In this document: one piece after another, positions 1 to 53,067 of the stretch | Position numbering within the stretch: the stretch's first letter is position 1 | How the letters are laid out: each line of letters opens with the position of its first letter | Origin: an uncultured bacterium | Lineage (GTDB): Bacteria > Patescibacteriota > Saccharimonadia > UBA4664 > SCTI01 | Assembly: GCA_963721685.1 (NCBI GenBank) | Contig: CAVRJJ010000005.1 | Span: 396,980 to 460,979 of the forward strand | Direction of reading: 5' to 3' | DNA length: 64,000 bases | Notes under the pieces: generated by a model | What the model saw: only the letters and a program-made list of their open reading frames with translations | The model's database searches: none | What the model was told of the DNA's origin: nothing | Made by a program: the position numbers and the translations under genes

Positions 1-17
1 GCTATGTAAAGAAATCG

Positions 18-872: not shown

Positions 873-913
873 ATAGCGGAGTATACTTAGAAGTAAACTA
901 AGGAGGCAATTAT

Positions 914-1291
914 ATGTTAGAAGGTAGCCACGCGTTTAGCAGCTTTTCAGTTAATGATCTGGCGGCGGCCAAAGAATTTTACGGCCAGACATTGGGGATT
1001 GAAGTAAGTGAGGATGAGATGGGTCTCACCTTAAAAATTGCCGGGGGAAACAATATCTTTATATACCCCAAGGACGACCATGCTCCCGCCACGTTCACCG
1101 TTTTGAATTTTCCGGTTGATGATATTGACGCGGCGGTTAACGGGTTAAAAAGTAAGGGTGTTACGTTAGAGCACAATGAGATGACCAATGAAGACGGAAT
1201 TGCCCGCGGCATCGCGGCGAACATGGGTCCGGACATCGCTTGGTTTAAAGACCCGGCCGGCAATTTTCTTTCGGTATTGCACGGAGCGTAA
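914..1291 (+). CDS. VOC/glyoxalase-bleomycin resistance family protein
   Basis: 125-aa ORF with a strong RBS (aaggaggc) 8 nt upstream. Size and the motifs [10 protein letters not shown] ... FKDPAGN are typical of the glyoxalase/VOC fold. Confidence 0.65.
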
Positions 1292-1341
1292 GGAGCTTAG
1301 AAACGGAGGGCTGTTGATAAGGCCACACCTTAGTGCTTAAT

Positions 1342-1593
1342 CTACTGTTGGTTATTAAGGCGATTAGGTAAGTTGCATGGGCTATTACGGCATTCTGTGG
1401 GATAGTCGGCATCATTACTTTTATCTAACTGTTCTTGCTCCTCTTGCGTAAGCTGCTTTTGCTGCCCTGAGTTCGTGCCCTTCTGCGCTACTTGTTGCTG
1501 ATAGATAAATAGCCCCGCCCCAATTGCCACTAGCAAAGCTAAGGCTATGCAAATTGAAATAATTATTGGTAACTGCTTGTTTGCTGTGCTCAT
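1342..1593 (-). CDS. small membrane-anchored hypothetical protein
   Basis: 83-aa ORF with a single N-terminal TM (LPIIISICIALALLVAIGAGLFIY), a Gln-rich tail, and C-terminal Cys residues. Confidence 0.35.
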   Translation of the reverse strand: MSTANKQLPIIISICIALALLVAIGAGLFIYQQQVAQKGTNSGQQKQLTQEEQEQLDKSNDADYPTECRNSPCNLPNRLNNQQ

Positions 1594-1755
1594 TACAGCC
1601 TATCATTATACAATTTGATTAAAATTATAGTCTAGGGCAAATGCCCGTGGAAGTCATCTGCATTTACCTGGTATTATGCTTAGCATGACATTCAAAGGAT
1701 TCTAATTTTCTCCAGTAGTGACCTAACCACGCCTAAGCTGGCGTTTATCTAATCT

Positions 1756-2265
1756 ATGGAGAAAATTATGGACCATAATATATTATACCCGATGGTAAGA
1801 ACCACGCTTGATGAAATAGGAATTGAATACGAAGTCCTTGAATGTGACCCTAAACTTGCCGATACCACGGCGTTCTGCGAGCACTACGGTTTCGCTTTAG
1901 CGCAGGCTGCTAATACCATAGTGGTAGCGTCGAGAAAGATTGAGCCGACCAAGTATGCCGTTTGTGTGGCTCTCGCCACAACGCGGCTTGATGTTAATAA
2001 GAAAGTCTCTGAACTATTGGGCGTAAAGCGGCTGTCGTTTGCAGATAGCGAAACAACTCAGCGCCTGACCGGCATGATGATAGGAGGCGTTACCGCTATT
2101 GGCATTAAAGATTTGCCTATTTACGTGGACGCGGCAGTGATGGAGCAAAAGAAGGTAGTGATGGGCGGTGGCAATCGGTCGAGCAAAGTTTTGCTTGATC
2201 CGCGGGAGCTTTTGAAATTGAAAGAGCTAGAGGTGGTGGAAAGGCTAGCTAAGGCAAAAGAGTAA
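1756..2265 (+). CDS. ybaK: YbaK/ProX-type aminoacyl-tRNA deacylase
   Basis: 169 aa. The middle region (AVCVALATTRLDVNKK ... MIGGVTAIG ... VMGGG) matches YbaK/ProX trans-editing domain architecture as I recall it. Confidence 0.7.
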   Translation: MEKIMDHNILYPMVRTTLDEIGIEYEVLECDPKLADTTAFCEHYGFALAQAANTIVVASRKIEPTKYAVCVALATTRLDVNKKVSELLGVKRLSFADSETTQRLTGMMIGGVTAIGIKDLPIYVDAAVMEQKKVVMGGGNRSSKVLLDPRELLKLKELEVVERLAKAKE

Positions 2266-2284
2266 TACGAAGGTTTTAGTATGC

Positions 2285-2470
2285 ATGGGGTCGAGGTGCC
2301 CGGGGAGCCACTTGACCCCCCGGGTCCTCAAGCGCGCTAGGCGCTAGTTGCTGGAGCTGAGGATGCTCAGCTCCGCTTGGGGCTGGGTCGGACGCATTCG
2401 AACAGCGCGGTCCAACATCTCGCGGGCGCCCTGATCCTGATCCTTCTGGGTGGCGGAAGCCATGTGGCTC
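2285..2470. other. short high-GC patch (about 65% GC) in AT-rich intergenic DNA, carrying hairpins and a 39-codon minus-strand ORF (2344..2463)
   Basis: The hairpin CCCGGGG-N11-CCCCGGG lies at about 2300-2326, and AGCGCGCT is palindromic. The minus-strand ORF has RBS+ATG (reverse complement of catgtggctcctcct) and encodes MASATQKDQDQGAREMLDRAVRMRPTQPQAELSILSSSN. The GC contrast with the flanks is clear by eye. Confidence 0.2.
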
Positions 2471-2734
2471 CTCCTCGTTGTTTACTGCGCCAAAATTAGC
2501 ACAGAGTCTAAAAGGCTACCACTTTCGAGAGGGCTTATATGCTAGTAGAGCTCATGAAAATCCGATTTAATAACGTAAACGTTTTGTAATATGTATCTGG
2601 TAAGCATCAGTTGAGTATAGAGTATAAGGTTAAAATAAGCGCCAAGTAGCTACAGGCGACAGTAGAACCATATTTGCCGGTGCTTATTTATTGGAAATCC
2701 TGTAAACTGGCCTCTTAATACTAAGGAGAAGGCC

Positions 2735-3277
2735 GTGGCAAATCAATCAGCTCAGCTCAATAGCTTTGCCATCGATACAAGGGAAGACCTCGTAATTAAT
2801 GCCATCGAAATATTTGACACAATAAAACATTCGCTAGTGGTGCTGAATAAAGACTTAAACGTGGTAATGGCAAATGCCGCCTTTTACAAAACTTTCCAGG
2901 TTACCCGCGAAGAAACTGAGGGTAATCGTATTTACAATATTGGTAACGGCCAATGGAATATAGACAAATTAAAAATACTCCTTGAGAAAATTATTCCCCA
3001 AAATAAGGCTGTAGATGATTACGAGGTTAGCCATAATTTTAATACCATCGGCGAAAAGGTGATGCTCTTAAACGCGCGGGAAATAGTTCGCCAAGATAAC
3101 CGGCAAGAAGTGATATTGCTTGCGATCGAGGATATTACCTATAGCAAAATGTTAGAGCAACAGGCGAAAGACGCTGAGTCTCACATTAATACCATTCTTG
3201 AAAAGCTTGTTGGATCCGCCGTGCGGTACACTGGTGGAACTGCCCCGCAAACTTCTCCCAAGAAAAAGAAAGCATAG
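2735..3277 (+). CDS. PAS-domain protein (sensor fold only, no output domain)
   Basis: 180 aa with a GTG start and RBS aaggag at 2724-2729. The region VVLNKDLNVVMANAAFYKTFQVTREE ... NGQWNIDKL ... LLAIEDIT fits the PAS fold pattern, and the C-terminus is Lys-rich. Confidence 0.55.
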   Translation: MANQSAQLNSFAIDTREDLVINAIEIFDTIKHSLVVLNKDLNVVMANAAFYKTFQVTREETEGNRIYNIGNGQWNIDKLKILLEKIIPQNKAVDDYEVSHNFNTIGEKVMLLNAREIVRQDNRQEVILLAIEDITYSKMLEQQAKDAESHINTILEKLVGSAVRYTGGTAPQTSPKKKKA

Positions 3278-3462
3278 TTTTGCAAGCCTAAGCCCACTCA
3301 CTTGACTTATTAATGGATCTATGATATAAATAACAGATTCGGCGTGACAAAGTATGGTCATGCCGGTAGCACGGCGCAGCTAGGTTTTTAGTGCGTTTCA
3401 GTTTCGCAATCGTCCTAGTCAACCTCTTTCCTCGTGGAAAGAAACCAAGCAAGGGGGCTGGT

Positions 3463-3744
3463 ATGCAGTGCAGTGAGACGGGAAAGGCATTCGAGGACAC
3501 GAACGCCGTCTTCGCGGTTGTTGATTCCGCGGGGAGGACCATCGCGATGGTCTCCAAGGAGGTGGTGCTCGCAATCCCATCGGATAGGCGAGAATGGGAA
3601 GACAGATGTACTGAAGGAAGCTCGGGCGCGAACATCCATAGGACGGTCTATGACGCGGGGCACTTCCATGTCGATGACTTCGTCTTCTCGATTACTCGGC
3701 GCGTGCTCGAAAGGCATTTGCCGAATGTCGCCAGCATCTCCTGA
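3463..3744 (+). CDS. hypothetical protein encoded in a high-GC patch
   Basis: 93-aa ORF in a roughly 57% GC segment (3400-3850) flanked by 42-45% GC DNA. RBS aagggggctgg, and the hairpin+T-run terminator lies downstream at 3811-3846. The overlapping minus-strand and Arg-rich ORFs look like frame artefacts of the GC-rich DNA. Confidence 0.25.
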   Translation: MQCSETGKAFEDTNAVFAVVDSAGRTIAMVSKEVVLAIPSDRREWEDRCTEGSSGANIHRTVYDAGHFHVDDFVFSITRRVLERHLPNVASIS

Positions 3745-3810
3745 AGTGGCACACCACCAGGGCAGACTCGTATCTGGCGAGTACAAATGGCATTTTCCGC
3801 CATCTGCCCC

Positions 3811-3846
3811 AGCCCCATGAGGCGCAAAACCCTATGGGGCTTTTTG
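3811..3846 (+). terminator. rho-independent terminator (AGCCCCAT-loop-ATGGGGCT followed by TTTTT)
   Basis: An 8-bp perfect stem read directly (3811-3818 / 3834-3841), followed by a T5 run. Confidence 0.4.
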
Positions 3847-3891
3847 CTACCAATTTTTAACACGAGGAAGCTGGTCTGTTAAGCTTGCTAC

Positions 3892-4278
3892 ATGGATCTA
3901 ACTGAAATTATAGGCAAAGTTGCAGGCGTAGTTGCCGTGTTGGCGTTTGTCCCCTACATCTGGAGTGTACTTAAGGGCAGCACTCAACCAAGCCGCGCAA
4001 GTTGGTTAATATGGTCTGTCTTAGGTGTAAGTATTCTTGCCGACCTATTTGCTGGTATTCCTACCTTAATTAAAGCGTGGAAATTTCCGGATACCCAGAG
4101 TACTAATGTTTATCGCAACGGCGCATTGAGCGCGATAATCACTCTGCTTATTATTGATAACTGGACGTATGCTGCGTATGGATTTCCCGTATACATATTG
4201 GTTATTTGCGCACTACTTTATGTCTTCATCAAGTTCAGAGTCGGAATAAGGCTCAAGCCTGTAAAGACCGTGGCTTAA
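3892..4278 (+). CDS. small 3-4 TM membrane protein (possibly PQ-loop/SemiSWEET-like)
   Basis: 128 aa with hydrophobic helices. The PQ-loop resemblance is weak and unverified. Confidence 0.4.
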   Translation: MDLTEIIGKVAGVVAVLAFVPYIWSVLKGSTQPSRASWLIWSVLGVSILADLFAGIPTLIKAWKFPDTQSTNVYRNGALSAIITLLIIDNWTYAAYGFPVYILVICALLYVFIKFRVGIRLKPVKTVA

Positions 4279-4376
4279 AAATGATCATTATCTATTTCGA
4301 AGCTCATTTAGCGGCCGGGGGGGGGCTGTAACTGCCTCATGGAAATGGCAACCTGGGTGGATCTATAAATTGACAT

Positions 4377-4798
4377 CTATTTCCAGGCCTGGAGGCCTTT
4401 AGTCGCTGCTTGCAGCACTTCGCGATTGCCATAAAGTCCTATCCCTAAATACTCAATTTCGCCAGCGTTTTTTTGTGACAAAGCATTTTGTAGCTCTTCA
4501 TCATCCAACAGTTCGACCATCTCGCGAGTAAATCCCATCCATTGTATATCAGCTGCTTGGCTTTGCGCGTAACCCTGCGCAGGTCTTTTGCGTCTGCCCT
4601 TAAGATGGCGATACCGTATTGAGTGTTACGAGGAATTTCAATTCCATCTGCAGTGATAAAAGAGGGGCCAGTCGAAAAATTATTGCCGAGTGAATTACAA
4701 AAGTAACCAGCGATGTGGGCAGCAGTATTGAGTAGCTGCCACTCGGGCAGATCTTTACGCATACAGATGGTGATTTTATTGGTAAAGTCTTGTGCCAT
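4377..4798 (-). pseudogene. DUF2000-like protein interrupted by a frameshift near 4585-4600
   Basis: The N-terminal part is the track ORF 4445..4798. A second frame continues as PAQGYAQSQAADIQWMGFTREMVELLDDEELQNALSQKNAGEIEYLGIGLYGNREVLQAATKGLQAWK and ends at TAG (4377-4379). Joined, the two give about 140 aa, the typical DUF2000 size. Confidence 0.35.
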
Positions 4799-4852
4799 GC
4801 ATCGATATTACCAGATAGGATTCCAAATCAGAACGATGGTTATGTTTTTTGT

Positions 4853-4952
4853 GGCTTCGCAAAGCCAATAATTGCATGGTGAACTACCGTGTATCGAATT
4901 GGAACCAAATCAAGAGAGAACTGGTCGCCTGGTATAAAGTTTTAGATGGAAG
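4853..4952 (-). repeat. degenerate tRNA-Glu-like element plus conserved 3' flank (copy A)
   Basis: It aligns along its full length with the intact tRNA-Glu at 10485..10559 and with copy B (about 85% identical to B over about 95 bp). It begins TGGTGA.., contains ATCGAAT, and ends ..TAGATGG. Confidence 0.55.
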
Positions 4953-4966
4953 TGAGCTTCAAGCAA

Positions 4967-6214
4967 TTACGAGAGGGTAGTGGAACCTCCTTTCTTTACA
5001 GCTAGGTACCTAAGCACTAGCAGGCCTAGCACCGCACTTATGGCAGAGGCGGCAAAGATACTTAGTTTGGAAATAGTTGCAAGCTGCTCTCCAGTAAAGG
5101 CAAGCTCTGTTACAAATATAGATACGGTAAAGCCTATTCCTGCCAGTAGTCCGGCTCCAAGTATGTGCATCCAGTTTGTGCTTGTTGGTAATGACGAAAA
5201 CCCTAACTTTATTATTAACCAGGATCCTAGTAATACGCCTATGGTCTTGCCAGCAACTAAGCCTAGAATAATGCCTCCAGTCAGCGGCAGGGCAGCGTCA
5301 TGCGGGAACGCATCAAATGATAGGGGGATGCCAGTATTGGCAAAGGCGAAGAGGGGGACGACTACAAGGGTGGAGGCTGGTATAGTAAATCGTTCTAAGC
5401 GTTCGGCTAAAGGCTCGCCACTTTTTCTTCTTTTTACCGGGGCAAGCAATCCAAGTAAGGCTCCAGCTATGCTAGGATGAATCCCCGAAGCCTGCAAGGT
5501 CAACCAAAGCAAGATTCCGGCAATAATAAAGACGGGCATGTTGAGTAACTTCATCTTGGCGAGCAATAATACCAAGCCCGAAAGTAGCGCTGCCGCTAAT
5601 AACATGGCGAAATTCGCATCTACTGAATAAAAAAGACCTATTACAATGACCGTTCCCACATCATCTACAATGGCCAGGGTTAAAAGAAAAAGTCGTAGGG
5701 AGGTTGGTATGCGATCACCCAGTAAGGCTAAGAAGCCTATCGCGATAGCAATGTCGGTGGCAGTTGGAATTGCCCATCCTCGGGCTGTCTCCAGTCCAGC
5801 ATTTATTGCGAGGAAGATTATCGCCGGAACAATCATGCCCCCAATGGCCGCGGCGATCGGTAGTAGTGCAGTACCACGATCACGTAACTTGCCCTTAACA
5901 AGCTCGCGCTTTAATTCCAGCCCAACTACCAGAAAGAAAATTGCCATGAGGCCTTCATTGATCCAATGACGCAGGTCTAGCGAAAGAACCCAATCCCCAA
6001 AACCGATAGGCAGGTTGGTGTGCCAAAGGGCATCATATACCGGCTTCATGCTGGTATTAGCGATCAAAAGTGCTAAGGCTGTTGTTGCCAGTATGAGCTT
6101 GCCGCTAATCGCTTCATCTTTAAGTAAGTATGAAGTAAGTTCGGATACTCGGGTTTTATGGAGTATTTTTACAATGTGTATGATTTTGTTTTTCAGGATA
6201 TATCCAGCCGCCAT
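4967..6214 (-). CDS. nhaA: Na+/H+ antiporter NhaA
   Basis: 415 aa with about 11-12 TM helices and the NhaA-characteristic segment GWAIPTATDIA plus ALAIVDD. Confidence 0.85.
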   Translation of the reverse strand: MAAGYILKNKIIHIVKILHKTRVSELTSYLLKDEAISGKLILATTALALLIANTSMKPVYDALWHTNLPIGFGDWVLSLDLRHWINEGLMAIFFLVVGLELKRELVKGKLRDRGTALLPIAAAIGGMIVPAIIFLAINAGLETARGWAIPTATDIAIAIGFLALLGDRIPTSLRLFLLTLAIVDDVGTVIVIGLFYSVDANFAMLLAAALLSGLVLLLAKMKLLNMPVFIIAGILLWLTLQASGIHPSIAGALLGLLAPVKRRKSGEPLAERLERFTIPASTLVVVPLFAFANTGIPLSFDAFPHDAALPLTGGIILGLVAGKTIGVLLGSWLIIKLGFSSLPTSTNWMHILGAGLLAGIGFTVSIFVTELAFTGEQLATISKLSIFAASAISAVLGLLVLRYLAVKKGGSTTLS

Positions 6215-6327
6215 TAATAGTATTTGCTGACCAGACTTCCCAGCACGCCTCCTCCATACTAATTGAGACGGTGTCTTAAAGCCAATTCACAGATATGGTG
6301 TCCTGGTGCAGGTTAAAGTGAAATTAC

Positions 6328-7056
6328 TCAGTGGGGGAGGCTTTGCTCAAAATTGGATATAGGGTCATACCAGCCCTGCTCGAGCACGCAAGCTTGAAAG
6401 TCGTGATCAAGACCAAAAATGACGGCAATACCTACCAGCAAAAAAAGCACACCTATACCACGCATAAACCAACCATCTGAATCACTAGTTCTTGCCAAAC
6501 GGTTAGCTAATGGCTGCCCGATAAGCGTTATAAGCAGCAAAACGCTAGCGAGCCCAGTAGCATAGGCAATTAAGTAGATTAAGCCTGTGGTAAATGACTG
6601 AGGAATAACGGTTGCTACGATGAGGGCATAGGTAGGGCTACAGCTACTAAAGACTGGCCCAAGGGCAGCTCCAGTAAGTATATCGCGCTGAATGCCCCGC
6701 TGACTAGAAGCGCTGCTAAGCAAGCTATTTGCTCGTATATTTAAGCGCAGCTTAGTTGCCAACTTCTCCCAGCTTTTCGGGAATGCAAGGCTGACGCCAA
6801 GAGCGATTACAATAATGCCGGAAAGAATCTTCCAAACCTCTACCGGTACACCCAATAGAGCAGTGCTAACTTTAAGAAGTAGCGTGAATAGAACGATAGA
6901 TACTGCCAGGCTGGCAACAATGACAAGAGGACGATACCAGCTCTTCTGCTGACCGAGAGCTATTGAACCCCCAACAATTACCGGAATGAGCGGTAAAATA
7001 CAAGGAGCCATGACCGTTAAGACTCCTGCTAAAAACGAAACTACCAGAAGTGTCAT
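6328..7056 (-). CDS. ccdA: cytochrome c-type biogenesis / disulfide-reductant transfer protein CcdA (DsbD family)
   Basis: 242 aa with 6 TM helices. Conserved Cys sit in TM1 (MAPCILPL) and TM4 (SSCSPT), as in CcdA. The start ATG overlaps the stop of the upstream thioredoxin-like gene (ATGA). Confidence 0.75.
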   Translation of the reverse strand: MTLLVVSFLAGVLTVMAPCILPLIPVIVGGSIALGQQKSWYRPLVIVASLAVSIVLFTLLLKVSTALLGVPVEVWKILSGIIVIALGVSLAFPKSWEKLATKLRLNIRANSLLSSASSQRGIQRDILTGAALGPVFSSCSPTYALIVATVIPQSFTTGLIYLIAYATGLASVLLLITLIGQPLANRLARTSDSDGWFMRGIGVLFLLVGIAVIFGLDHDFQACVLEQGWYDPISNFEQSLPH

Positions 7057-7520
7057 TGGAGAATATTGGGAGTAATGGCTTGCAGTGTCGGATCGTCGTA
7101 AGCGACATATTTTTTAATCAAGTCGCCGTTATCATCGACCCGGACAAAGATAGTTTGAATTGTTACGCCGTACTTTTGGCGTAATTGCTGGTTTGAATCA
7201 TAGTCTACCTTAAAGATTGTGACATCATTTGGAACCTGGCCGGCCTTAATGCTCGCATCAAGCTGTCTGCACTGGGGACACCAAGGTGCATGGAAGAAAA
7301 GTACTTTGGTGCCTTAAGTAGAAGCAACGCTGTTCTCGGTGTAGTCGGTGTATGCACCAGGTGACGATGAGACACCCTTGGGTGTTTGGGTCTGCTGGCT
7401 GGACGGGGGAGGTTGCTTATGGACTTGGCCGTCTTCTGGATTGGCGAGGTAGATATAGGCAAAGGCGCCAGTAATTATAACAGCAATGCCAAGTGCAATT
7501 AATAAGGGTTTGCCTTTCAT
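7053..7520 (-). pseudogene. membrane-anchored thioredoxin-like (TlpA/ResA-type) protein with an in-frame TAA at 7314-7316
   Basis: The N-terminal 68-aa ORF (TM anchor MKGKPLLIALGIAVIITGAFAYIYL plus linker) continues in the same frame after the TAA as GTKVLFFHAPWCPQCRQLDASIKAGQVPNDVTIFKVDYDSNQQLRQKYGVTIQTIFVRVDDNGDLIKKYVAYDDPTLQAITPNILQ. This part carries the WCPQC thioredoxin motif and no internal start codon, and ends at a TGA that overlaps the ccdA ATG. Confidence 0.6.
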
Positions 7521-7619
7521 ATGCCAATTTTACGAGAATTACTGTCATATAGCGAATGGCTCGAACCGCTAAGCAAGCCTGTATGTTGGATCCAAAACTT
7601 GCTATGTAATTAAGATAAT

Positions 7620-7716
7620 GGCTTCGCAAAGCCAATAAATGCTGGTGAACTATCAGATTTTGGATTGGCACCAAATCAAGAAGGAACTGATTGCCTGGTA
7701 TAAGGTTTTGGGGGAA
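7620..7716 (-). repeat. degenerate tRNA-Glu-like element plus 3' flank (copy B)
   Basis: The sequence ggcttcgcaaagccaataaatgctggtgaactatcag..ggattggcaccaaatcaagaaggaactgattgcctggtataaggtttt aligns with copy A and with the tRNA-Glu gene. Confidence 0.55.
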
Positions 7717-8044
7717 TACAGGTATTAGATATTACGAGCGTGTAGTGGAATCATTTGTTATAAAGTGAGCGATATGGCAACTCAATCTATTATAAAGTAC
7801 TAAAAAGCGGTACCGATCAATATCGGGCTAATTAACCCTCTTATTCGTTGGCTGCTTTGTATAAGGTTCTTATGCTTTCACAATTTGCTTAAAAGTGATA
7901 AAACTATAGCGGCCCGAGTGTTTGCGGAAATCAGCTCATGATCAAAGGAGTCGAAGTGACAGGAACTGCGACAACTGCTGAACCCCTTGTGCTGACGGCT
8001 GTCAGGTTCTGGTCGGCGCGACCTTATCGGGGTAAGATAAGGGT

Positions 8045-8730
8045 ATGCGTATATTAGTTGTTGAAGACGAGCATAAGATTGCCAGATGCGATAAAAAGGG
8101 GGCTGGAGCAAGAATCATTTGCTGTCGATGTAGCCTACACCAGTGACGAGGGGGTGTCGATGGCTGACAACTGAAGATCTATGATGCAGTCGTTCGTAGA
8201 TCGTATGTTGCCAGGATTACTTGACGGCGTAGATATTGTTAAAGAAATGCGGCGCGAGCAGATTCATACTCCTGTACTCTTGTTGACTGCAAAAGATGGT
8301 ATAAGAAGATCGGGTAATCGGCCTGAATGCTGGCGCAGATGATTACCTGGTTAAGCCATTTGCATTTGCAGAACTTCTTGCGAGAGTTCGAGCATTACTT
8401 CGTCGCCCTCACGATTCTTTAGGAACTGTTTTGAAAATCGATGATCTTACGCTCGACACTAACAGTTTTGAGGTACAGCGAGCTGGGAATAAGATCGACT
8501 TAACAAGTAAAGAATTCGCTCTTTTAGAGTATTTGATGCGAAATCAAAATCAGACACTAACAAAGAGCAACATAATGAATCATGTTTGGGATTATGATGC
8601 AGATATCCTTCCAAATACAGTAGAGGTTTACATAGGGTATCTTCGCAATAAGATCGATAAGCCTTTTACGAGCCCATCGTTGATTCAGACTTCCAGAGGT
8701 TTTGGATATAAAATGGCAGTTGCTAAATAA
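8045..8730 (+). pseudogene. OmpR/PhoB-family response regulator disrupted by several frameshifts
   Basis: It begins MRILVVEDEHKIA (receiver). The receiver motifs (..AVDVAYTSDEG.., ..HTPVLLLTAKDG.., ..GADDYLVKPFAFAELLARV..) can be read only by switching frame at least 3 times, once at an a5g5 homopolymer. The intact C-terminal winged-helix is track ORF 8431..8730. Confidence 0.6.
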
Positions 8731-9738
8731 TGTTCAAAAGTTCAGTAATAAAGCTCTCGGCTGCATATTTAGCTATATTGATGCTAATCTGTATTTTTTT
8801 CAGCATTATGGTTTACAGGGTGTCAACTGATTCGCTCGAGGAAAGTTTTCAGCGCCGAACACGGGCGCCTACAGCCTAGGTTCGGGCCTTTGCCTAGGGA
8901 GGAGTTTGAGCAGCTTCGAAATGAGCAGCTAGCCGAGGGGAGGTCGCGTATCATTATGAATCTGTTCGGTACTAATGTACTCATTTTAGTACTAGGGGGA
9001 CGCAGGTAGTTATTTATTGGCACAGCGAACCTTGCGTCCTATAGAGGAAGCGCTCGATGCTCAGAGTCGGTTTACGGCTGATGCCTCCCATGAATTGCGT
9101 ACTCCTCTCACTGCTATGCGAACTGAGATAGAGGTCAGCCTTACAGAGACAAGAAATTAAAAGTTGGGGAGGCGAGGGAATTACTTGATTCCAACTTAGA
9201 AGAAATCGACAAACTCCGAGAGCTTGCGAGTGGGCTATTAACATTATCCAGGCAGCAAAATGGGGATGCAATACCCTTTAGTGAACTACAGCTTAATACG
9301 ATTGCCAGAGAAGCACAGGAGCGACTATCTGGTGTTATAGCTAAGACGAATACAGTCATTAAGACCGAATCTGACGTGGAATATCCAGTCACAGGCGACC
9401 GTGAAAGCTTAATTAGGTTATTCGTGATACTTCTGGACAATGCAATTAAATACAGTAAAGAGACTCCTAATATCCTTATCTCCATCAAGCAGGATTCCCG
9501 AAAAGCAGTGGTCCAAATAAAGGATGAGGGCATAGGCATTAAAGCTTCTGATCTACCGCATATATTTAACAGGTTTTATCGTGCAGACACCTCTCGATCA
9601 AAGTCCACTGAAGGATACGGGTTGGGGCTTTCTATCGCTAAACAAATCGTAGATAGACATAAAGGCTCAATTAATGTTTCAAGTACTCCAGGGGAGGGTT
9701 CGTTAATTACTGTTAGTCTGCCTATAAAACCAGCTTAG
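8730..9738 (+). pseudogene. sensor histidine kinase (HisKA + HATPase_c) with frameshifts and stops
   Basis: The ATG overlaps the stop of the response regulator (TAATG). There is an N-terminal TM and an H-box (ASHELRTPLTAMRTEIEV) in one frame. An intact HATPase_c domain is track ORF 9376..9738 (N/G1/G2 boxes: LLDNAIKYS, DEGIGI, GYGLGLSI). The middle is broken by frame changes and a TAA. Confidence 0.55.
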
Positions 9739-9821
9739 AATTCTAAGTCTAGGATCTTAAGCATTTTCTCAGACAAGTTTTTATGCTTGGAGAGTCATAA
9801 AGACGAAAGGAATAAAAAAGT

Positions 9822-10454
9822 ATGCAGGTAAGAAAAAACATTGCGATTGCGGGAGCAGCTACCGCAATCGGGCTTGCTTGGCTGATAGTGGGTGTCGCAT
9901 CAGCAGAAACGAGCAGCAGCTCAAGTTCGCTAGTCGATAAAGTGGCCGAAAAATTTAATCTAAATAAAGATGAAGTTCGAAACGGTTTTGATGAAAACCG
10001 CACAGAGCGTCAAGCTGAGCATGAGCAGCATTACGAAGAGCGCTTAACGCAAGCGGTAAAAGATGGGAAGCTAACTGAGGATCAGAAGTCCAAAGTTCTT
10101 GCTAAGCATAAGGAAGCTACAGGCTGAGATGGAAAAAAAGCGGGAGAGCATGGAAGCAGAACGCGATGCCATGGAAAGTAAATCAGAGGAAGAGCGTCAG
10201 GCGTTACGGGATCAGCGGCGCGATGAGATGAATAAGCAGCGAGCTGAACTTGAGAAGTGGGAGAGGACAATAATATTCCCACGGGCTACTTAGGACTAGG
10301 GGGTAAAGGTGGCCCAGGAGGCCGAGGGCATGGTCCTGGAGGCTTTCAGCAGTCAGTGAGTGTACATGAAAGTGGCGCCGAAAGGCGTCACTTTCATGTG
10401 AAGTATAGCCCCATGGTTAACCTGTTGGTTCCAAAATCCTACTTTGGGTTGTAA
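9822..10454 (+). pseudogene. secreted coiled-coil (Glu/Arg/Lys-rich) protein split over three frames
   Basis: Three consecutive overlapping track ORFs (9822..10127, 10099..10293, 10257..10454) read as one continuous signal peptide, coiled-coil and Gly-rich tail if two frameshifts are allowed. Confidence 0.35.
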
Positions 10455-10484
10455 AAATAATGGCTTTGCGAAGGTATAATTGCA

Positions 10485-10559
10485 TGGTGATCCCACGGGG
10501 ATTCGAACCCCGGTTGCCAGGATGAAAACCTGGTGTCCTAACCCCTAGACGATGGGACC
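10485..10559 (-). tRNA. tRNA-Glu (anticodon TTC), CCA encoded
   Basis: The reverse complement GGTCCCATCGTCTAGGGGTTAGGACACCAGGTTTTCATCCTGGCAACCGGGGTTCGAATCCCCGTGGGATCACCA folds as a cloverleaf with anticodon loop TTTTCAT. Confidence 0.9.
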
Positions 10560-10646
10560 AAGCCGTGTTTTAACCATGTTATGGTACCGTGCGCAACAGC
10601 TTTGCGCAAGGATTGTAGTATGCTTGAAATGAAGAGAAGGGACATC

Positions 10647-12059
10647 ATGCCAGCCAAGCCCAGTTTAAAGCGCACTAAAATATTAGCGACCATCGGGCCC
10701 GCTACCAGTAGCTATGAAATGATGTTCGCCCTTTGCAAGGCCGGGGCAAATGGGGTGCGGGTAAACATGTCGCATGGCAGCCATGAAGGCCACGCCAAAG
10801 TGATTGCCCTGGCTCGCAAGATTAGTGGGGAGCAAAATAAGCCAGTTTCGGTGGTGGTCGATTTGCAAGGCCCTAAAATTCGCCTAGGCGAACTGCCGGA
10901 GGATGGGCTGGAGCTGCAAGAGGGGAACGAGGTCGAGTTTGTGTTGGCTGATTCCTATGAGAGCGGTGGGCCGATCCCCATCCAGTATGACCTCAGCAAG
11001 TATGTGAAGGTTGGCGACCCGGTGTTTCTGCGCGACGGTATGGTGCAGGTGGAGGTTACGGGCAAGAAAGGGGAGTCGTTTACCGCGCGGGTGCTCAATA
11101 GCGGCACGGTGTTTAGTAAGCAGGGGATTAATTTGCCGGAAACCGATTTTGGCGGAGAGATCTTGACCCCCAAAGACTTAGAAGACTTGCAGTTCGCGCA
11201 TGACCAACAGGCTGATTATGTAGCGCTGTCGTTCGTGCAAGCGGCGAGCGATATCGAGAGCCTGCGCCAACGCTTGAAGGATATGAAATCCGATTGCGGA
11301 ATCCTCGCAAAAATTGAAACCAAGGCCGCGGCGGAGGAGGTTGAGGAAATCGTGAAGGCGGCCGATGGGGCAATTGTGGCGCGGGGTGACTTGGCGGTAG
11401 AAACCTTGCCAGAGCAAGTGCCGGTCATCCAAAAGCGGGTGATTGAAAGCGCCCGCCAGTATCAGAAAATCGCGATTGTGGCTACCCAAATGCTGGAGTC
11501 GATGATCCATTCACCCCAGCCAACGCGGGCTGAGGTGCAGGATGTGGCCACGGCGGTAGCCCAAGGCGCCGACGCGGTGATGCTTTCGGGTGAGTCGGCG
11601 GTGGGGGAGTATCCGGTGGAAACAGTGGCCTTAATGCGGCGGATTATTGTGTACACCGAAAACCATCGTTGGCAAAATATCACCGCCAAGGCCTTTGGCA
11701 GTGATACCCAAACCAATGCCATTTCGGCGGCGGCCATTACCTTGGGGCAAAAAATGAAAGCCAAGTTTATTTTAGCTGAAACGGTTTCGGGCCGGACCGT
11801 GCGCAATCTGTGCTCCTTTCGCCCGGAAGAGCTGGTAATTGCCGTTACTCCCAGGCAGCGGGTGTATCAGCGGCTGGGGTTGGTATGGGGCGCGCGCTGC
11901 TATCTTATTAGCGACCCGGTCAAAGCGGCCGAGGAGAGCATGAACTTACTGCGTAAAGAGCACAATGTGGTAAAGGGGGATATTGTGGTGCGGGCTTCCG
12001 GACAACGCCCGGGCGTTGAAGGTGGTACCGACACTATTCAGGTGCAAGTAGTTTCGTGA
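10647..12059 (+). CDS. pyk: pyruvate kinase
   Basis: Motifs TKILATIGPAT, MSHGSHE, and a barrel/A-domain pattern. The start was chosen at MPAKP (RBS gaaggga) rather than the track start, which abuts the tRNA. Confidence 0.9.
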   Translation: MPAKPSLKRTKILATIGPATSSYEMMFALCKAGANGVRVNMSHGSHEGHAKVIALARKISGEQNKPVSVVVDLQGPKIRLGELPEDGLELQEGNEVEFVLADSYESGGPIPIQYDLSKYVKVGDPVFLRDGMVQVEVTGKKGESFTARVLNSGTVFSKQGINLPETDFGGEILTPKDLEDLQFAHDQQADYVALSFVQAASDIESLRQRLKDMKSDCGILAKIETKAAAEEVEEIVKAADGAIVARGDLAVETLPEQVPVIQKRVIESARQYQKIAIVATQMLESMIHSPQPTRAEVQDVATAVAQGADAVMLSGESAVGEYPVETVALMRRIIVYTENHRWQNITAKAFGSDTQTNAISAAAITLGQKMKAKFILAETVSGRTVRNLCSFRPEELVIAVTPRQRVYQRLGLVWGARCYLISDPVKAAEESMNLLRKEHNVVKGDIVVRASGQRPGVEGGTDTIQVQVVS

Positions 12060-12119: not shown

Positions 12120-13334
12120 ATGAAGTTTCGAACCCTCCGCGACCTAAGCCTCAAAAATAAAAAGGTGCTGCTCAGGGTTGACTATAACGTGCCGGTTTCC
12201 GGCGGTATAGTTGGTGACCCCCTGCGGATTGAGGCATCTTTTGACACCATCCGCTATTTGCTTGACCGTAGCTGCAGCATTATATTAGTGAGCCATCTGG
12301 GCCGCCCGGAGGGCAAGAAGGTGCCGGAGTTAAGCCTGAAGCCGGTGGCCAAGCGGGCTAGCGAAATGCTTGGCCAGGATATTACGTTTGTGCCTGACTG
12401 CGTGGGGCCGAAAGCCGCAGCGGCGGCCGCGGCATTAAGGCCCGGTGAGATTATTTTGCTGGAAAATACCCGGTTCCACAAGGAGGAAGATACTAACGAT
12501 CCGGTCTTCGCAAAAGCGTTGGCGAGCCTGGCTGAAGTGTATGTTGACGACGCTTTTGCCAACATCCACCGCAAGCACGCTTCCATTGTGGGGGTTACCC
12601 ATTTTTTGGACGGCGCCGCGGGAATATTGGTTGAAAAAGAGGTTAAGTATGTGAGCGGCGCGTTGCTGCATCCGGCAAAACCGCGGGTGGCAATTGTCGG
12701 CGGAGCCAAGGTCTCTACAAAACTTGGCGTGCTGGAGCATTTAATTAAGCATGTCGACCGTTTGGCGATAGGCGGGGCGATGGCCAACACCTTTCTCGCC
12801 GAGGCTGGTCACGAGGTAGGCATGAGTAAGCAGGAACCGGAATTATTTGGCGAGGTCCGCCGGATCCGGGATGAAGCCGAAGCGGCCGGAGTGGAAATTG
12901 TGCTGCCGGAAGACGGAGTTGTCGTTTCAAAGTCGCTTAGCGAGGGCCCGGCCCGGTTTGTGCACTTAAATGAGGTGGCCAAAGACGATTACATCGTTGA
13001 TTTTGGACCAAAGACGGTAGCGGATATTATTCACCCGCTTAATTTTCACGGCAGTGTGCTCTGGAACGGCCCGTTAGGCATCACCGAAGTGCCGGCTTTT
13101 GCCCATGGCTCGCGTATGCTGGCTGATAATATTATAGAGTCGGGCGTTTCTTGCATAATTGGAGGCGGAGAGACGGCCGCCTTTGTGAATGAGCAAGGTT
13201 TGCATGACGAGTTTAGCTGGGTGTCAACCGGGGGAGGGGCAAGTTTAGCCCTGATGTCGGGGAGTGAGCTTCCAGGATTAACGGCGTTGCGCAAAGAGGG
13301 TTCTCGGACGCTGGCGTCGCTTGGACGCCGTTAA
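12120..13334 (+). CDS. pgk: phosphoglycerate kinase
   Basis: 404 aa with motifs LLRVDYNVP, VSHLGRP, and GGGASL. Confidence 0.95.
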   Translation: MKFRTLRDLSLKNKKVLLRVDYNVPVSGGIVGDPLRIEASFDTIRYLLDRSCSIILVSHLGRPEGKKVPELSLKPVAKRASEMLGQDITFVPDCVGPKAAAAAAALRPGEIILLENTRFHKEEDTNDPVFAKALASLAEVYVDDAFANIHRKHASIVGVTHFLDGAAGILVEKEVKYVSGALLHPAKPRVAIVGGAKVSTKLGVLEHLIKHVDRLAIGGAMANTFLAEAGHEVGMSKQEPELFGEVRRIRDEAEAAGVEIVLPEDGVVVSKSLSEGPARFVHLNEVAKDDYIVDFGPKTVADIIHPLNFHGSVLWNGPLGITEVPAFAHGSRMLADNIIESGVSCIIGGGETAAFVNEQGLHDEFSWVSTGGGASLALMSGSELPGLTALRKEGSRTLASLGRR

Positions 13335-13366
13335 GAAACCTACCATAAGCGTGTTATTATAACGGT

Positions 13367-14137
13367 ATGAAACACTTTACTATTGTTGGTAACTGGAAAA
13401 TGCACCAATCGCCGGAGCAGGCGGAGCGGCTGGTACGAAAACTCCAGGAGAAGGCTAAGCCCCAAACCCATGTGACAGCGGTGCTGTGCCCCCCGTTTAT
13501 TTCAATCCCCGCCGTTAAGAAAATGGCGGAAGACGACTTGTTTAAACTGGGAGCCCAAAACCTCAACGAGAATGATGAGGGGCCGAATACCGGTGAAGTG
13601 TCGGGTGCCATGCTTAAAGACCTGGTTGAATATGTGATAGTTGGCCATTCTGAGCGGCGTCAGCTGGAACATGAAAGCGACAAGCGGATTGCTAAAAAAG
13701 TAGCGGCGGCGCTGCGCCACGGGCTAACGCCGATTTTGTGTGTGGGGGAGAAGCTGAACGACCGCCAGGATGGCCATGCCCGCCGGGTGGTGGTAGACCA
13801 ACTCCATACCGGCTTAAGCCAGATCACCGCTGAAGAAGTTAGTAAGTTAATCGTTGCCTACGAGCCGGTGTGGGCGATCGGCACCGGCGAGTTTGCCGCT
13901 CCCGACCAAGTGGAACCGGTGGTGGGGGTTATCCGCCAAACGGTGGAAGAGATGTTTGGCGAAGGTGCCAGCGGATCACTTGAAATCCTTTACGGCGGCA
14001 GCGCTACACCCGATAATGTGAAAGCCTACCTGTCACTGCGCCATATCAGCGGTCTGCTGGTTGGTGGTGCCAGTCTTAATTACGAGCAATTTTCCGAGAT
14101 GTTGGCAACGGCTGCCAGTCTTTCCCATGGCCGCTAA
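13367..14137 (+). CDS. tpiA: triosephosphate isomerase
   Basis: Motifs VGNWKM, VGHSERR, AYEPVWAIGTG, and GGASL. Confidence 0.95.
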   Translation: MKHFTIVGNWKMHQSPEQAERLVRKLQEKAKPQTHVTAVLCPPFISIPAVKKMAEDDLFKLGAQNLNENDEGPNTGEVSGAMLKDLVEYVIVGHSERRQLEHESDKRIAKKVAAALRHGLTPILCVGEKLNDRQDGHARRVVVDQLHTGLSQITAEEVSKLIVAYEPVWAIGTGEFAAPDQVEPVVGVIRQTVEEMFGEGASGSLEILYGGSATPDNVKAYLSLRHISGLLVGGASLNYEQFSEMLATAASLSHGR

Positions 14138-16558: not shown

Positions 16559-16614
16559 CCGATAATGAGGTCATTTTATTGCTTTTCAAAACGTTTATGC
16601 TTAAAGTAGGAAGC

Positions 16615-17868: not shown

Positions 17869-17892
17869 AGCGCCGCCTGTTAAAATAGAAGA

Positions 17893-52904: not shown

Positions 52905-52981
<77 letters not shown>

Positions 52982-53067
52982 ATGCAATTATATTCTTGGG
53001 AGTTTGCACAATGCACCTATTGCTTGCCTCAGTTAAGCTTTAGGCAGCTTAAATAAAGGAACGCAGT

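What the first reader, a model, noticed from the sequence alone, without database searches (positions are those of the whole stretch)
4853..10559. Three tandem tRNA-Glu-like elements delimiting two cargo segments
The intact tRNA-Glu(TTC) at 10485-10559 has two full-length but degenerate copies of itself plus about 25 bp of its 3' flank at 4853-4952 and 7620-7716. All three are in the same orientation. Copies A and B are about 85% identical to each other and clearly homologous to the tRNA (TGGTGA...ATCGAAT...CCTGGT...TAGATGG). The segments between them are about 2.7 kb each: nhaA-ccdA-thioredoxin, then the decayed two-component system. Serial integration or excision at a tRNA 3' end, or repeated tRNA-associated duplication, is the classic signature of genomic islands. 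No integrase remains, which suggests old, decayed insertions.
Basis: seen in the sequence. Interest (0 to 1): 0.6.

Follow-up and report, generated by a model that had tools for sequence, protein, structure and literature searches.

The report
Integrase-tail scars beside tRNA-Glu
The two "tRNA-like" repeats are not decayed tRNA genes: they are leftover end-pieces of a serine integrase gene that is split each time its mobile element inserts at the 3' end of tRNA-Glu, so they mark old insertions of foreign gene cassettes in a Saccharibacteria genome.

Summary
tRNA-Glu(UUC) lies at 10485-10559 on the minus strand. A (4852-4996) and B (7619-7759) are a 145-nt direct repeat, 77% identical (E 5e-24). 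Neither copy scores as a tRNA. Above chance they share with the tRNA locus only the ...TCACCA end and its roughly 65-nt trailer.

The 108-nt core of A and B also occurs in three related Saccharimonadia contigs. Where context is visible (two contigs) it lies downstream of tRNA-Glu in the same orientation, with different cargo between. It has no conserved RNA fold. Read antisense to the tRNA, it encodes (M/L)VNYRxSNWxQIKRELVAWYKVL...*. This matches the extreme C-terminal tail of large serine recombinases (LSRs).

In a circular 4.5-kb element (L098) the LSR carries this native tail. In 69 of 84 family members the ORF instead switches after the LV/MV codons (TGGTG, the complement of CACCA) into the antisense of a tRNA. 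So attP lies inside the LSR ORF, and integration leaves the tail-coding piece at the far end of the island.

A and B are therefore orphan junctions of the attR type. They bound two low-GC cargo segments: trx-ccdA-nhaA and a decayed two-component system. How the tRNA kept its own trailer is unresolved.

The parts
10485..10559 (-). Intact tRNA-Glu(UUC). Its 3' ...GATCACCA end (TGGTGA on the + strand, 10485-10490) is the inferred recombination core (B arm of attB).
   Evidence: ARAGORN; Rfam 61 bits. The sequence is identical in L083 and L087, with one substitution in L086 and in L089.
10407..10484 (-). Trailer of tRNA-Glu ('flank65', B' arm): TGCAATTAT, hairpin (10462-10475), ATTATTTTT, then the palindrome-like TTTGGAACCAA. 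It is ancestral host sequence.
   Evidence: The same trailer follows tRNA-Glu in L086 and L089 (nhmmer E 1e-12 to 4e-15). L086 has no insertion: the backbone gene lies 310 nt away.
7753..10406 (.). Cargo segment 2. It holds a fragmented response regulator (8058-8730) and histidine kinase (8730-9738) on the + strand, a small secreted coiled-coil ORF (9822-10127), and a strong convergent hairpin at about 10367-10400. GC 0.443.
   Evidence: Pfam Trans_reg_C and HATPase_c on separate short ORFs; fragmented ORF list; GC.
7643..7752 (+). Repeat B, the P arm: orphan 3'-terminal coding fragment of a large serine recombinase gene. The remnant ORF 7645-7728 encodes VNYQILDWHQIKKELIAWYKVLGEYRY*. It is the most diverged copy, and a 1-nt deletion before the core breaks the upstream frame.
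   Evidence: (nhmmer E 8e-27).
7570..7642 (-). Copy of the tRNA-Glu trailer joined to B (hairpin GGCTTCGCAAAGCC at 7620-7633). Together with B it forms a P-B' junction of the attR type.
   Evidence: 74% to the tRNA trailer over 69 nt, E 3e-5; E 3e-14.
4988..7569 (-). Cargo segment 1, all on the minus strand: nhaA (4967-6214, intact; its last 6 codons and stop lie inside repeat A), a ccdA/DsbD-like membrane protein (6328-7056), and decayed thioredoxin-like ORFs (7205-7520). GC 0.468.
   Evidence: Pfam Na_H_antiport_1 E 2e-128 and DsbD_TM; ORFs; GC.
4877..4987 (+). Repeat A, the P arm: orphan 3'-terminal coding fragment of a large serine recombinase gene. The ORF 4876-4980 encodes MVNYRVSNWNQIKRELVAWYKVLDGSELQAITRG*. 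It is the ortholog of the L083 copy (92/109 identical).
   Evidence: E 1e-31; peptide profile hits LSR tails, E 1e-10; DNA profile hits the LSR 3' end in L098, E 3e-10.
4798..4876 (-). Copy of the tRNA-Glu trailer joined to A (hairpin 4853-4866). It forms the outermost P-B' junction. Backbone-like genes (DUF2000, PQ-loop-like, glyoxalase) follow to the left.
   Evidence: (E 2e-13).

Best explanation
A and B are scars of site-specific insertion by large serine recombinases (LSRs) that target the extreme 3' end of tRNA-Glu.

In this Saccharimonadia LSR family the attachment site attP lies inside the last ~35 codons of the recombinase's own ORF. The ORF runs antisense to the tRNA. The crossover falls at the LV/MV codons (nTGGTn), which are the complement of the tRNA's ...ACCA end.

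Integration therefore joins the body of the LSR gene to the tRNA, so the ORF now ends in tRNA-antisense codons (...MV-IPRGFEPRLPG*). The native tail-coding segment, about 108 nt encoding ...VNYRxSNWxQIKRELVAWYKVL...*, is carried to the far end of the inserted DNA. There it abuts the tRNA's original trailer, giving a P-B' (attR-type) junction.

Each of A and B is such a junction, and each bounds a cargo segment: a decayed two-component system, and trx-ccdA-nhaA.

Shown: homology of the repeats to LSR tails at protein and DNA level; the two alternative ORF endings in the family; a circular element carrying the native ending; variable cargo among relatives.

Inferred: the exact crossover position, and that two separate insertions (rather than one duplication) built the array.

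Unresolved: the tRNA itself still carries a host-type trailer, so the array reads B-B' | cargo | P-B' | cargo | P-B'. This suggests that integrase-less cassettes with a P-B'-like site entered so as to regenerate attB. The route could have been recombinase supplied in trans or homologous recombination in the trailer. This is comparable to CIME/SCC-type tandem accretion.
For: - The 108-nt core has sharp ends (TTCCACTAC...GTAGTTCACCA). It recurs in L083, L089 and L090 (nhmmer E 1e-29 to 1e-33).
- Antisense translation gives one conserved stop-terminated peptide in 4 of 5 copies, with conservative substitutions. Variable sites by codon position are 10/7/14, and A vs L083 has 5 synonymous and 3 non-synonymous codon changes.
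- A profile of these peptides hits the extreme C-termini of LSRs directly after LV/VV: P0285 E 1e-10, P0345 E 6e-7, P0359 E 0.03.
- The DNA profile hits the 3' end of the LSR gene in L098 at E 3e-10. L098 is a circular 4,495-bp element (1,520-nt terminal redundancy at 100%) with no tRNA.
- Intact LSR genes P0273 (L093) and P0271 (L095) overlap a tRNA-Glu(CUC) gene on the other strand by 41 nt. The LSR remnant in L083 overlaps tRNA-Glu(UUC) in the same way.
- Of 84 full-length family members, 69 end [LMV]V-x2-6-G[FILV]EP (T-arm antisense) and 8 have native W[NHP]x[LI] tails.
- P0121 is the C-terminal third of proteins with Resolvase, Recombinase and Zn-ribbon domains.
- The P arms follow their target tRNA's acceptor end. 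L098 TGGTAGCCCTAAG compares with tRNA-Glu(CUC) TGGTAGTCCCAAG. A TGGTGAACTACCG compares with tRNA-Glu(UUC) TGGTGATCCCACG.
- The trailer is host sequence.
- Cargo is variable and low in GC, and it is extra relative to L087 and L086.
Against: - No recombinase body survives in the window, so linkage of A and B to an LSR rests on homology of only ~33 codons.
- Canonical LSR attP x attB recombination predicts a P' arm (LSR coding sequence) next to the tRNA, as in L083. The window, like L089, has a host-type trailer there instead.
- The L083 copy is not followed by the trailer.
- Only five chromosomal copies are known. One (L090) has no visible tRNA context.
- The third-position excess is modest.
- The crossover point is inferred from where homology ends, not measured.
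- B may be an old duplicate of A rather than an independent insertion.
Confidence: 0.75

Rival explanations
1. One reading: A and B are full-length decayed copies (pseudogenes) of tRNA-Glu plus flank, produced by tRNA-associated duplication or by displacement of tRNA fragments.
For: A and B occupy the position of the tRNA relative to the trailer. A gap-tolerant global alignment to the tRNA gives z 2.2-4.8, with shared GGTYCCA, CCWGGCAACC, TTCGA and TCACCA strings.
Against: No tRNA call by ARAGORN or by Rfam at E<=10. The body similarity is at chance level. The profile never hits tRNA-Glu. No cloverleaf and no stable fold. The sequence is instead homologous to LSR C-terminal coding sequence. 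The short resemblance next to the core is what P/B arm mimicry predicts.
Confidence: 0.04
2. A and B are remnants of complete LSR gene 3' ends in the attP configuration (P-P'). On this view the ~65-nt 'trailer' is decayed LSR coding sequence rather than host trailer, and the array arose by integration of related elements into a resident attL or by homologous recombination between LSR genes.
For: ATAAT-N3-4-TGGT is shared by the P' side of real LSR genes (L098, L093, L095) and by the trailers of T, A and B. In L093 the LSR linker itself encodes a tRNA terminator hairpin in antisense. This reading would explain why all three units carry the same flank.
Against: The trailer profile does not hit any LSR 3' region. 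An LSR C-terminal profile finds nothing upstream of the core in T, A or B. The same trailer follows tRNA-Glu in L086, where the backbone gene lies 310 nt away and no LSR trace exists.
Confidence: 0.12
3. There was only one insertion scar. B arose by a local segmental duplication of A plus trailer, or by gene conversion, so the 'two cargo segments' do not record two integration events.
For: The hairpin part of the flank is 20/20 identical between A and B while the core is only 80/109. No recombinase remnant accompanies either segment.
Against: B is no closer to A (80/109) than to the L090 copy (84/109), whereas A is closest to the L083 ortholog (92/109). The two cargo segments share no other homology. 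L089 shows a single-cassette version of the same architecture.
Confidence: 0.12
4. The 108-nt element is a structured small RNA or cis-regulatory leader conserved near tRNA-Glu.
For: Sharp boundaries and conservation across genomes. There is an internal hairpin ACCAG...TTGGT and an extended-minus-10-like TGGTATAAA on the + strand.
Against: No Rfam hit. The folding energy is not distinguishable from shuffles on either strand (z -2.4 to +0.3). There are 0 compensatory pairs. The neighbouring genes differ in identity and orientation in every locus.
Confidence: 0.03

Closest known systems
tRNA-gene genomic islands with a displaced 3' tRNA fragment (Islander-type, PMC4383910)
   Same: An intact tRNA at one end, a repeated junction at the other, variable low-GC cargo, and decay of the integrase.
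   Different: Those islands use tyrosine integrases, and the repeat is a true copy of the tRNA 3' part. Here the enzyme is a large serine recombinase. Identity with the tRNA is only the ~6-nt CCA end plus imperfect arm mimicry, and the conserved repeat is integrase coding sequence.
SSV-type 'suicidal' integrases (att site inside the integrase gene; PMC8371274)
   Same: The attachment site lies within the recombinase's own ORF, integration into a tRNA gene partitions the gene, and a gene fragment is left at the far junction.
   Different: SSV-type enzymes are tyrosine recombinases and are stated to be exclusively archaeal. They are split into large N and C parts. Here a bacterial (CPR) serine recombinase loses only its last ~33 codons and gains a short tRNA-antisense tail. 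Whether its activity changes is unknown.
Integration-dependent immunity of cluster N/P mycobacteriophages (attP inside the repressor gene; PMC5764923)
   Same: attP sits in the 3' end of an ORF that overlaps a host tRNA gene, so integration changes the protein's C-terminus.
   Different: There the remodelled protein is the repressor, which loses a degradation tag, and the enzyme is a tyrosine integrase. Here the remodelled protein is the integrase itself, and no regulatory consequence has been shown.
SCC composite islands (Ccr large serine recombinases at the 3' end of rlmH; 10.64898/2026.03.31.715619) and CIME/ICE tandem accretion (PMC5704250)
   Same: Serial accretion of cassettes at the 3' end of one conserved gene, internal att junctions, and many segments that lack a recombinase.
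   Different: The target here is a tRNA gene in a reduced CPR genome. The junctions are integrase-tail fragments, and the target-proximal site looks like an unoccupied attB.
Tycheposons of Prochlorococcus (10.1101/2020.12.28.424599)
   Same: Small cargo-carrying elements at tRNA genes in streamlined genomes. A minority carry large serine recombinases, and tandem junctions are seen.
   Different: No ORF-internal attP or tail-fragment scars are mentioned in the passages read. The lineage and recombinase family differ.

Membership tests
tRNA gene / tRNA pseudogene | Cloverleaf detectable by tRNA covariance model or ARAGORN | tested here: not met
   No call for A or B by ARAGORN, or by Rfam tRNA at gathering score or at E<=10.
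tRNA gene / tRNA pseudogene | Sequence homology to the parent tRNA along the body | tested here: not met
   z 1.45 and 0.88, and 13-40% of random segments score as well. The profile of 5 copies does not hit tRNA-Glu. The gap-tolerant alignment is only suggestive.
tRNA-targeting genomic island | Intact tRNA at one boundary and a repeat of the recombination core at the other | tested here: met
   TCACCA plus trailer is repeated at T, B and A.
tRNA-targeting genomic island | Content between the boundaries variably present or different in relatives | tested here: met
   The cargo in L083 is an LSR remnant plus Cass2, in L089 it is C15, L086 has none, and in the window it is TCS and trx-ccdA-nhaA.
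tRNA-targeting genomic island | Integrase gene adjacent to the tRNA | tested here: not met
   No recombinase body in the window (tblastn; profile on six-frame pieces). It is present as a remnant in relative L083.
Large serine recombinase integrative element | Resolvase + Recombinase + Zn-ribbon domain protein | tested here: met
   Met in relatives: P0122-P0127 and phrog_95. In the window only the last ~33 codons remain.
Large serine recombinase integrative element | Free circular form with attP, and integrated form with hybrid junctions | tested here: met
   L098 is a circular contig with the native ORF end. L093, L095 and L083 are integrated with a tRNA-antisense ORF end. A and B are P-B' junctions.
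Large serine recombinase integrative element | Catalysis of attP x attB recombination at a defined dinucleotide | not testable with these tools
   The crossover is placed only by the ends of homology around TGGTG/TGGTA.
Suicidal (SSV-type) integrase | att site inside the integrase ORF, so that integration partitions the gene | tested here: met
   There are two alternative ORF endings after LV/MV: 69 tRNA-antisense against 8 native. The native tail segment is found as an orphan at far junctions.
Suicidal (SSV-type) integrase | Tyrosine recombinase of archaeal mobile elements | tested here: not met
   Serine recombinase domains. The hosts are named Saccharimonadia.
Structured non-coding RNA | Conserved secondary structure with covariation, or a match to a curated family | tested here: not met
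Integron cassette array (attC) | Imperfect inverted-repeat attC with R''/R' core sites and an IntI tyrosine integrase | not tested
   I looked for RYYYAAC/GTTRRRY cores by eye in the five aligned copies and saw none. No motif scan was run, and IntI was not searched for. Cargo segments hold several genes.

The most novel reading that the evidence does not exclude
This would be a bacterial, serine-recombinase counterpart of the archaeal 'suicidal' integrases. The LSR's attP is embedded in its own 3' end, so integration swaps an amphipathic native tail (W-N-x-L/I...) for a tRNA-antisense tail. This swap would act as a built-in switch of integrase stability or directionality. The orphan tail-plus-trailer junctions would remain usable attachment sites, letting integrase-less cassettes accrete serially at tRNA-Glu while regenerating attB. 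That would amount to an integron- or SCC-like gene-capture platform in reduced CPR genomes.
Probability: 0.2. Interest if true: 0.8.

Novelty: new variant of a known kind. Interest (0 to 1): 0.6.

Why it matters
- It gives a concrete, searchable marker for old and new insertions in Saccharibacteria/CPR genomes, whose mobile elements are poorly described. The marker is a ~108-nt integrase-tail segment joined to a tRNA trailer.
- It shows that a widespread CPR family of large serine recombinases targets the extreme 3' end of tRNA genes, with the attachment site inside the recombinase ORF. A recent review describes that arrangement as exclusive to archaeal tyrosine integrases (PMC8371274).
- Native attP/attB pairs can be read directly from the two ORF endings. 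This is useful for predicting att sites of new LSRs.
- If the tail swap alters activity, it would be a new way of controlling directionality.

Tried and rejected
1. tRNA pseudogene: rejected by ARAGORN, Rfam, shuffling and profile tests.
2. Small structured RNA or riboswitch: rejected. There is no Rfam hit, no stable fold and no covariation, and the neighbours are inconsistent.
3. Promoter or leader for downstream genes: gene orientation differs among loci, so this was dropped.
4. Integron attC: considered, but I saw no core sites by eye. No motif scan was run.
Relatives were reached instead through the protein database and contig look-ups.
6. Look-ups of the window's own contig failed, so the sequence left of the window and the rest of the 466-kb contig could not be searched for more copies.
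7. The metagenome pattern scan found a single extra copy. The viral contig scan found none.
8. The word-indexed protein search with the L083 remnant found only itself. The exhaustive HMMER search was needed.
9. I tested whether the trailer is decayed LSR coding sequence. No support was found.
10. I searched for any LSR body remnant in the window, including next to tRNA-Ala. None was significant.
11. I looked for a displaced tRNA fragment or tail segment within 10 kb of the integrated LSRs in L093 and L095. None was found, so those islands are probably longer than the flank held.

Full report
**1. The observation**

ARAGORN and Rfam find one tRNA in the region: tRNA-Glu(UUC) at 10485-10559 on the minus strand. 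A sensitive self-comparison of 1-11000 against the whole window finds a single significant repeat. It is 4852-4996 (A) against 7619-7759 (B), 145 nt at 77% identity, E 5e-24, direct, in the tRNA's orientation.

Against the tRNA locus, B matches 10423-10490 (69 nt, 74%, E 3e-5). A matches 10461-10507 (48 nt, 75%, E 0.004). The match therefore covers the tRNA's last bases (...TCACCA) and the sequence downstream of it, not the tRNA body.

Four tests argue against a tRNA origin:
- ARAGORN does not call A or B, and the Rfam tRNA model does not reach E<=10 in a 3.1-kb search.
- The 69 nt upstream of TCACCA in A and B align to the tRNA body at chance level: z 1.45 and 0.88, and 13-40% of random genomic 69-mers do as well.
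- A profile of five copies never hits a tRNA-Glu gene even at E<=100.
- A global alignment that tolerates long gaps gives z 2.2-4.8, falling to 0.9-3.1 without the terminal TCACCA.

The repeat is real, but 'full-length degenerate tRNA copies' is not supported.

**2. Organism and relatives**

Homologues of the adjacent pyruvate kinase are named Saccharimonadia/Saccharimonadales, and the window's own contig is 466 kb. I fetched contigs of relatives:
- L083, L084 and L085 (Pyk 79% identical)
- L089 (67%)
- L086 (65%)
- L087 (64%)
- L091 (65%)

In L083-L089 the tRNA-Glu(UUC) gene lies upstream of pyk on the opposite strand. In L091 it is on the same strand as pyk.

**3. The repeat is a conserved 108-nt element with variable cargo behind it**

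tblastx and then nhmmer found the core of A and B in L083 (319-429) and L089 (7335-7444), E 1e-29 to 1e-34. A pattern scan of metagenome contigs found it once more, in L090 (113-223).

The boundaries are sharp in all five copies: TTCCACTAC...GTAGTTCACCA in tRNA sense. In the window, L083 and L089 the element lies 0.75-5.6 kb beyond the 3' end of tRNA-Glu, in the tRNA's orientation.

What lies between the tRNA and the element differs each time:
- L083: a recombinase remnant plus a Cass2/GyrI-like gene.
- L089: a pyroglutamyl peptidase (C15).
- Window: a fragmented two-component system, then B, then trx-ccdA-nhaA, then A.

In L090 the element is followed by VapBC.

**4. It is not an RNA**

There is no Rfam match. 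The five copies fold no better than shuffled sequences on either strand (z -2.4 to +0.3). RNAalifold finds a few invariant pairs and no compensatory change.

**5. It is coding, antisense to the tRNA**

Translating the window's + strand gives one frame with a conserved, stop-terminated peptide:
- A: MVNYRVSNWNQIKRELVAWYKVLDGSELQAITRG*
- B: LVNYQILDWHQIKKELIAWYKVLGEYRY*
- L083: IVNYAVSSWNQIKRELVAWHKVLDESQLIATTRG*
- L090: LVNYRITNWHQIKRELVAWYKVLSESQQLKTTSG*
- L089: the same frame, with one internal stop.

Substitutions are conservative. Variable sites fall 10/7/14 on codon positions 1/2/3. A against L083 has 5 synonymous and 3 non-synonymous codon changes.

**6. The peptide is the native C-terminal tail of a large serine recombinase**

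In L083 the ORF abutting tRNA-Glu (P0121, 191 aa) matches phrog_95 'integrase' (E 2e-7). It also matches the C-terminal third of 500-550-aa proteins (P0122, E 3e-46). Those proteins carry Resolvase, Recombinase and zinc-ribbon domains.

A profile of the five peptides hits the extreme C-termini of three members of this family, directly after an LV/VV pair:
- P0285 ...EESLLV|AHCISNWHQIKKELISWHSIL... (E 1e-10)
- P0345 ...ENNSLV|ALSIDTWNLIKRELVAWYEAF... (E 6e-7)
- P0359 (E 0.03)

P0345 is encoded on L098. The first and last 1,520 nt of L098 are identical, so it is a circular or tandem 4,495-bp element. It has no tRNA. The DNA profile of the 108-nt element hits the 3' end of its LSR gene (1673-1744, E 3e-10).

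**7. The family has two alternative ORF endings**

Intact LSR genes P0273 (L093 10001-11557) and P0271 (L095 4633-6189) overlap a tRNA-Glu(CUC) gene on the other strand by 41 nt and end ...LV|VPRG(I/F)EP...*. The L083 remnant does the same with tRNA-Glu(UUC), ending ...MV|IPRGFEPRLPG*.

Among 84 full-length family members:
- 69 end [LMV]V-x2-6-G[FILV]EP, the antisense of a tRNA T-arm read in one fixed frame.
- 8 have native tails with a W[NHP]x[LI] motif.
- 7 are unclassified.

The LV/MV codons (nTGGTn) are the complement of the tRNA's ...ACCA end.

The simplest reading is as follows. attP lies inside the 3' end of the LSR ORF. The crossover is at or next to the CCA end. Integration replaces the native tail by tRNA-antisense codons. 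The native tail-coding segment (the P arm) is left at the far end of the inserted DNA.

An alignment of all junctions supports this. Sequences are shared up to TGGTG/TGGTA and diverge beyond it. The P arms also resemble the acceptor end of their own target:
- L098 TGGTAGCCCTAAG against tRNA-Glu(CUC) TGGTAGTCCCAAG.
- A TGGTGAACTACCG against tRNA-Glu(UUC) TGGTGATCCCACG.

**8. The trailer**

The ~65-75 nt after tRNA-Glu consist of TGCAATTAT, a hairpin, a T-run, and then TTTGGWWCCAA. This trailer is conserved after tRNA-Glu in the window, L086 and L089. In L086 a backbone gene follows 310 nt from the tRNA and there is no trace of an LSR, so the trailer is host sequence (B').

A and B each carry a copy of it directly after the core (nhmmer E 2e-13 and 3e-14). 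Each is therefore a P-B' junction, the composition expected of attR. A profile of the trailer does not hit LSR 3' regions. An LSR C-terminal profile finds nothing upstream of the core in T, A or B.

**9. Evidence that the segments are insertions**

- GC is 0.468 (4988-7562) and 0.443 (7753-10404), against 0.514 for 10560-64000.
- The glyoxalase gene (914-1291) is 69% identical to its L087 counterpart. That counterpart lies 3.6 kb from tRNA-Glu. In the window the gene lies 3.5 kb from A's trailer and 9.2 kb from the tRNA, so the 5.6-kb A-to-tRNA array is extra.
- The 169-aa gene next to tRNA-Glu in L086 is the ortholog (64%) of the gene next to the element in L089. L089 therefore carries one extra cassette, trailer-C15-P arm.
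- Cargo 2 is heavily decayed: the response regulator and histidine kinase lie in six or more fragments. In cargo 1, nhaA and ccdA are intact and the thioredoxin-like gene is broken.

**10. What remains unexplained**

Canonical LSR integration would leave the LSR's own 3' coding region (P') next to the tRNA, as in L083. In the window and in L089 the tRNA keeps a host-type trailer. The array therefore reads B-B' | cargo | P-B' | cargo | P-B'.

No recombinase body survives anywhere in the window. A is the ortholog of the L083 copy (92/109 identical). B is about equally distant from all copies (72-84/109), yet shares a 20/20 identical hairpin with A.

I infer that the cargo segments behaved as integrase-less cassettes whose attachment site is itself a P-B'-like junction. 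Entry next to the tRNA would then regenerate an attB-like site. The entry route could have been a recombinase supplied in trans or homologous recombination within the trailer. This is analogous to decay to CIMEs followed by tandem accretion (PMC5704250), and to SCC composite islands built by Ccr serine recombinases at the 3' end of rlmH (10.64898/2026.03.31.715619).

Two rivals cannot be excluded: an old duplication of one scar, and a P' origin of the trailer.

**11. Comparison with what is known**

- tRNA-linked islands with displaced tRNA fragments are classic, but they use tyrosine integrases and true tRNA repeats (PMC4383910).
- An attachment site inside the integrase gene is the hallmark of SSV-type 'suicidal' integrases. 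A recent review calls these exclusively archaeal (PMC8371274).
- attP inside the 3' end of an ORF overlapping a tRNA is also the basis of integration-dependent immunity in mycobacteriophages. There the remodelled protein is the repressor (PMC5764923).

The present case combines these ideas in a bacterial serine recombinase family. Full-text searches combining Saccharibacteria or Patescibacteria with serine recombinases brought up no paper on the subject among the titles and abstracts listed. A search on attP within the integrase gene brought up only the archaeal tyrosine integrases.

**Verdict**

The island interpretation is broadly right, and the tRNA-pseudogene interpretation is wrong. The repeats are orphan integrase-tail/trailer junctions. 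I rate this a new variant of a known kind and moderately interesting.

Noticed in passing
window 52982-53012 (3' flank of tRNA-Ala(GGC) 52905-52981, + strand): The trailer of tRNA-Ala(GGC) begins ATGCAATTATA, almost the same as the tRNA-Glu trailer TGCAATTATA. The antisense of this tRNA plus 31 nt of trailer matches the C-terminal tail of LSR P0123 (E 0.001). This may be a shared recombinase half-site or a shared tRNA trailer motif. No LSR body remnant was found there.
   Followed up: partly
L098 1-6015: This JGI contig is a circular or tandem 4,495-bp element: its first 1,520 nt equal its last 1,520 nt at 100%. It carries only an LSR, an HTH regulator and about five small ORFs, which makes it a minimal free form of the integrative element.
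   Followed up: partly
window 4967-4987: The last six codons and the stop of the intact nhaA gene (...GGSTTLS*) are supplied by the antisense strand of the integrase-tail remnant A. The cargo gene therefore reads into the scar and terminates there. B has a matching ...STTRS* remnant with no gene attached.
   Followed up: partly
L093 11470-11500; L095 6104-6130: The variable linker of the LSR just before the LV junction encodes, on the other strand, a terminator-like hairpin plus T-run for the tRNA. One stretch of DNA thus serves as both the integrase C-terminal coding region and the tRNA trailer.
   Followed up: no
window 4905-4920, 4817-4830, 7590-7600, 10423-10436; also L086 and L089 trailers: A near-palindrome TTGG(W/N)(W/N)CCAA occurs once inside the 108-nt element and again 45-60 nt downstream in every trailer copy. 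It lies outside the usual span of an LSR att site. Its function is unknown.
   Followed up: no
window 3288-3860: A GC-rich patch (0.54) sits inside the low-GC block. It has long overlapping ORFs on both strands, no Pfam hit and no Rfam hit.
   Followed up: no
L089 3-5497 vs 13142-18636: The gene list of this contig is mirror-symmetric around its centre, with the same genes in inverted order at both ends. This suggests a hairpin-type assembly artefact or a large inverted duplication. The tRNA-Glu locus lies in the unique central part.
   Followed up: no
L086 8639-9940, L087 8664-9956, L089 8384-9679 vs window 10560-10646: A Peptidase_M16 gene lies between tRNA-Glu and pyk in the more distant relatives. 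It is absent in the window and in L083.
   Followed up: no
L095 174-206: There is a weak match (E 0.45) to the 3' half of the tRNA-Glu(CUC) gene, in direct orientation, 5.9 kb from the integrated LSR and inside a called 699-aa gene. It could be a displaced fragment or chance.
   Followed up: no
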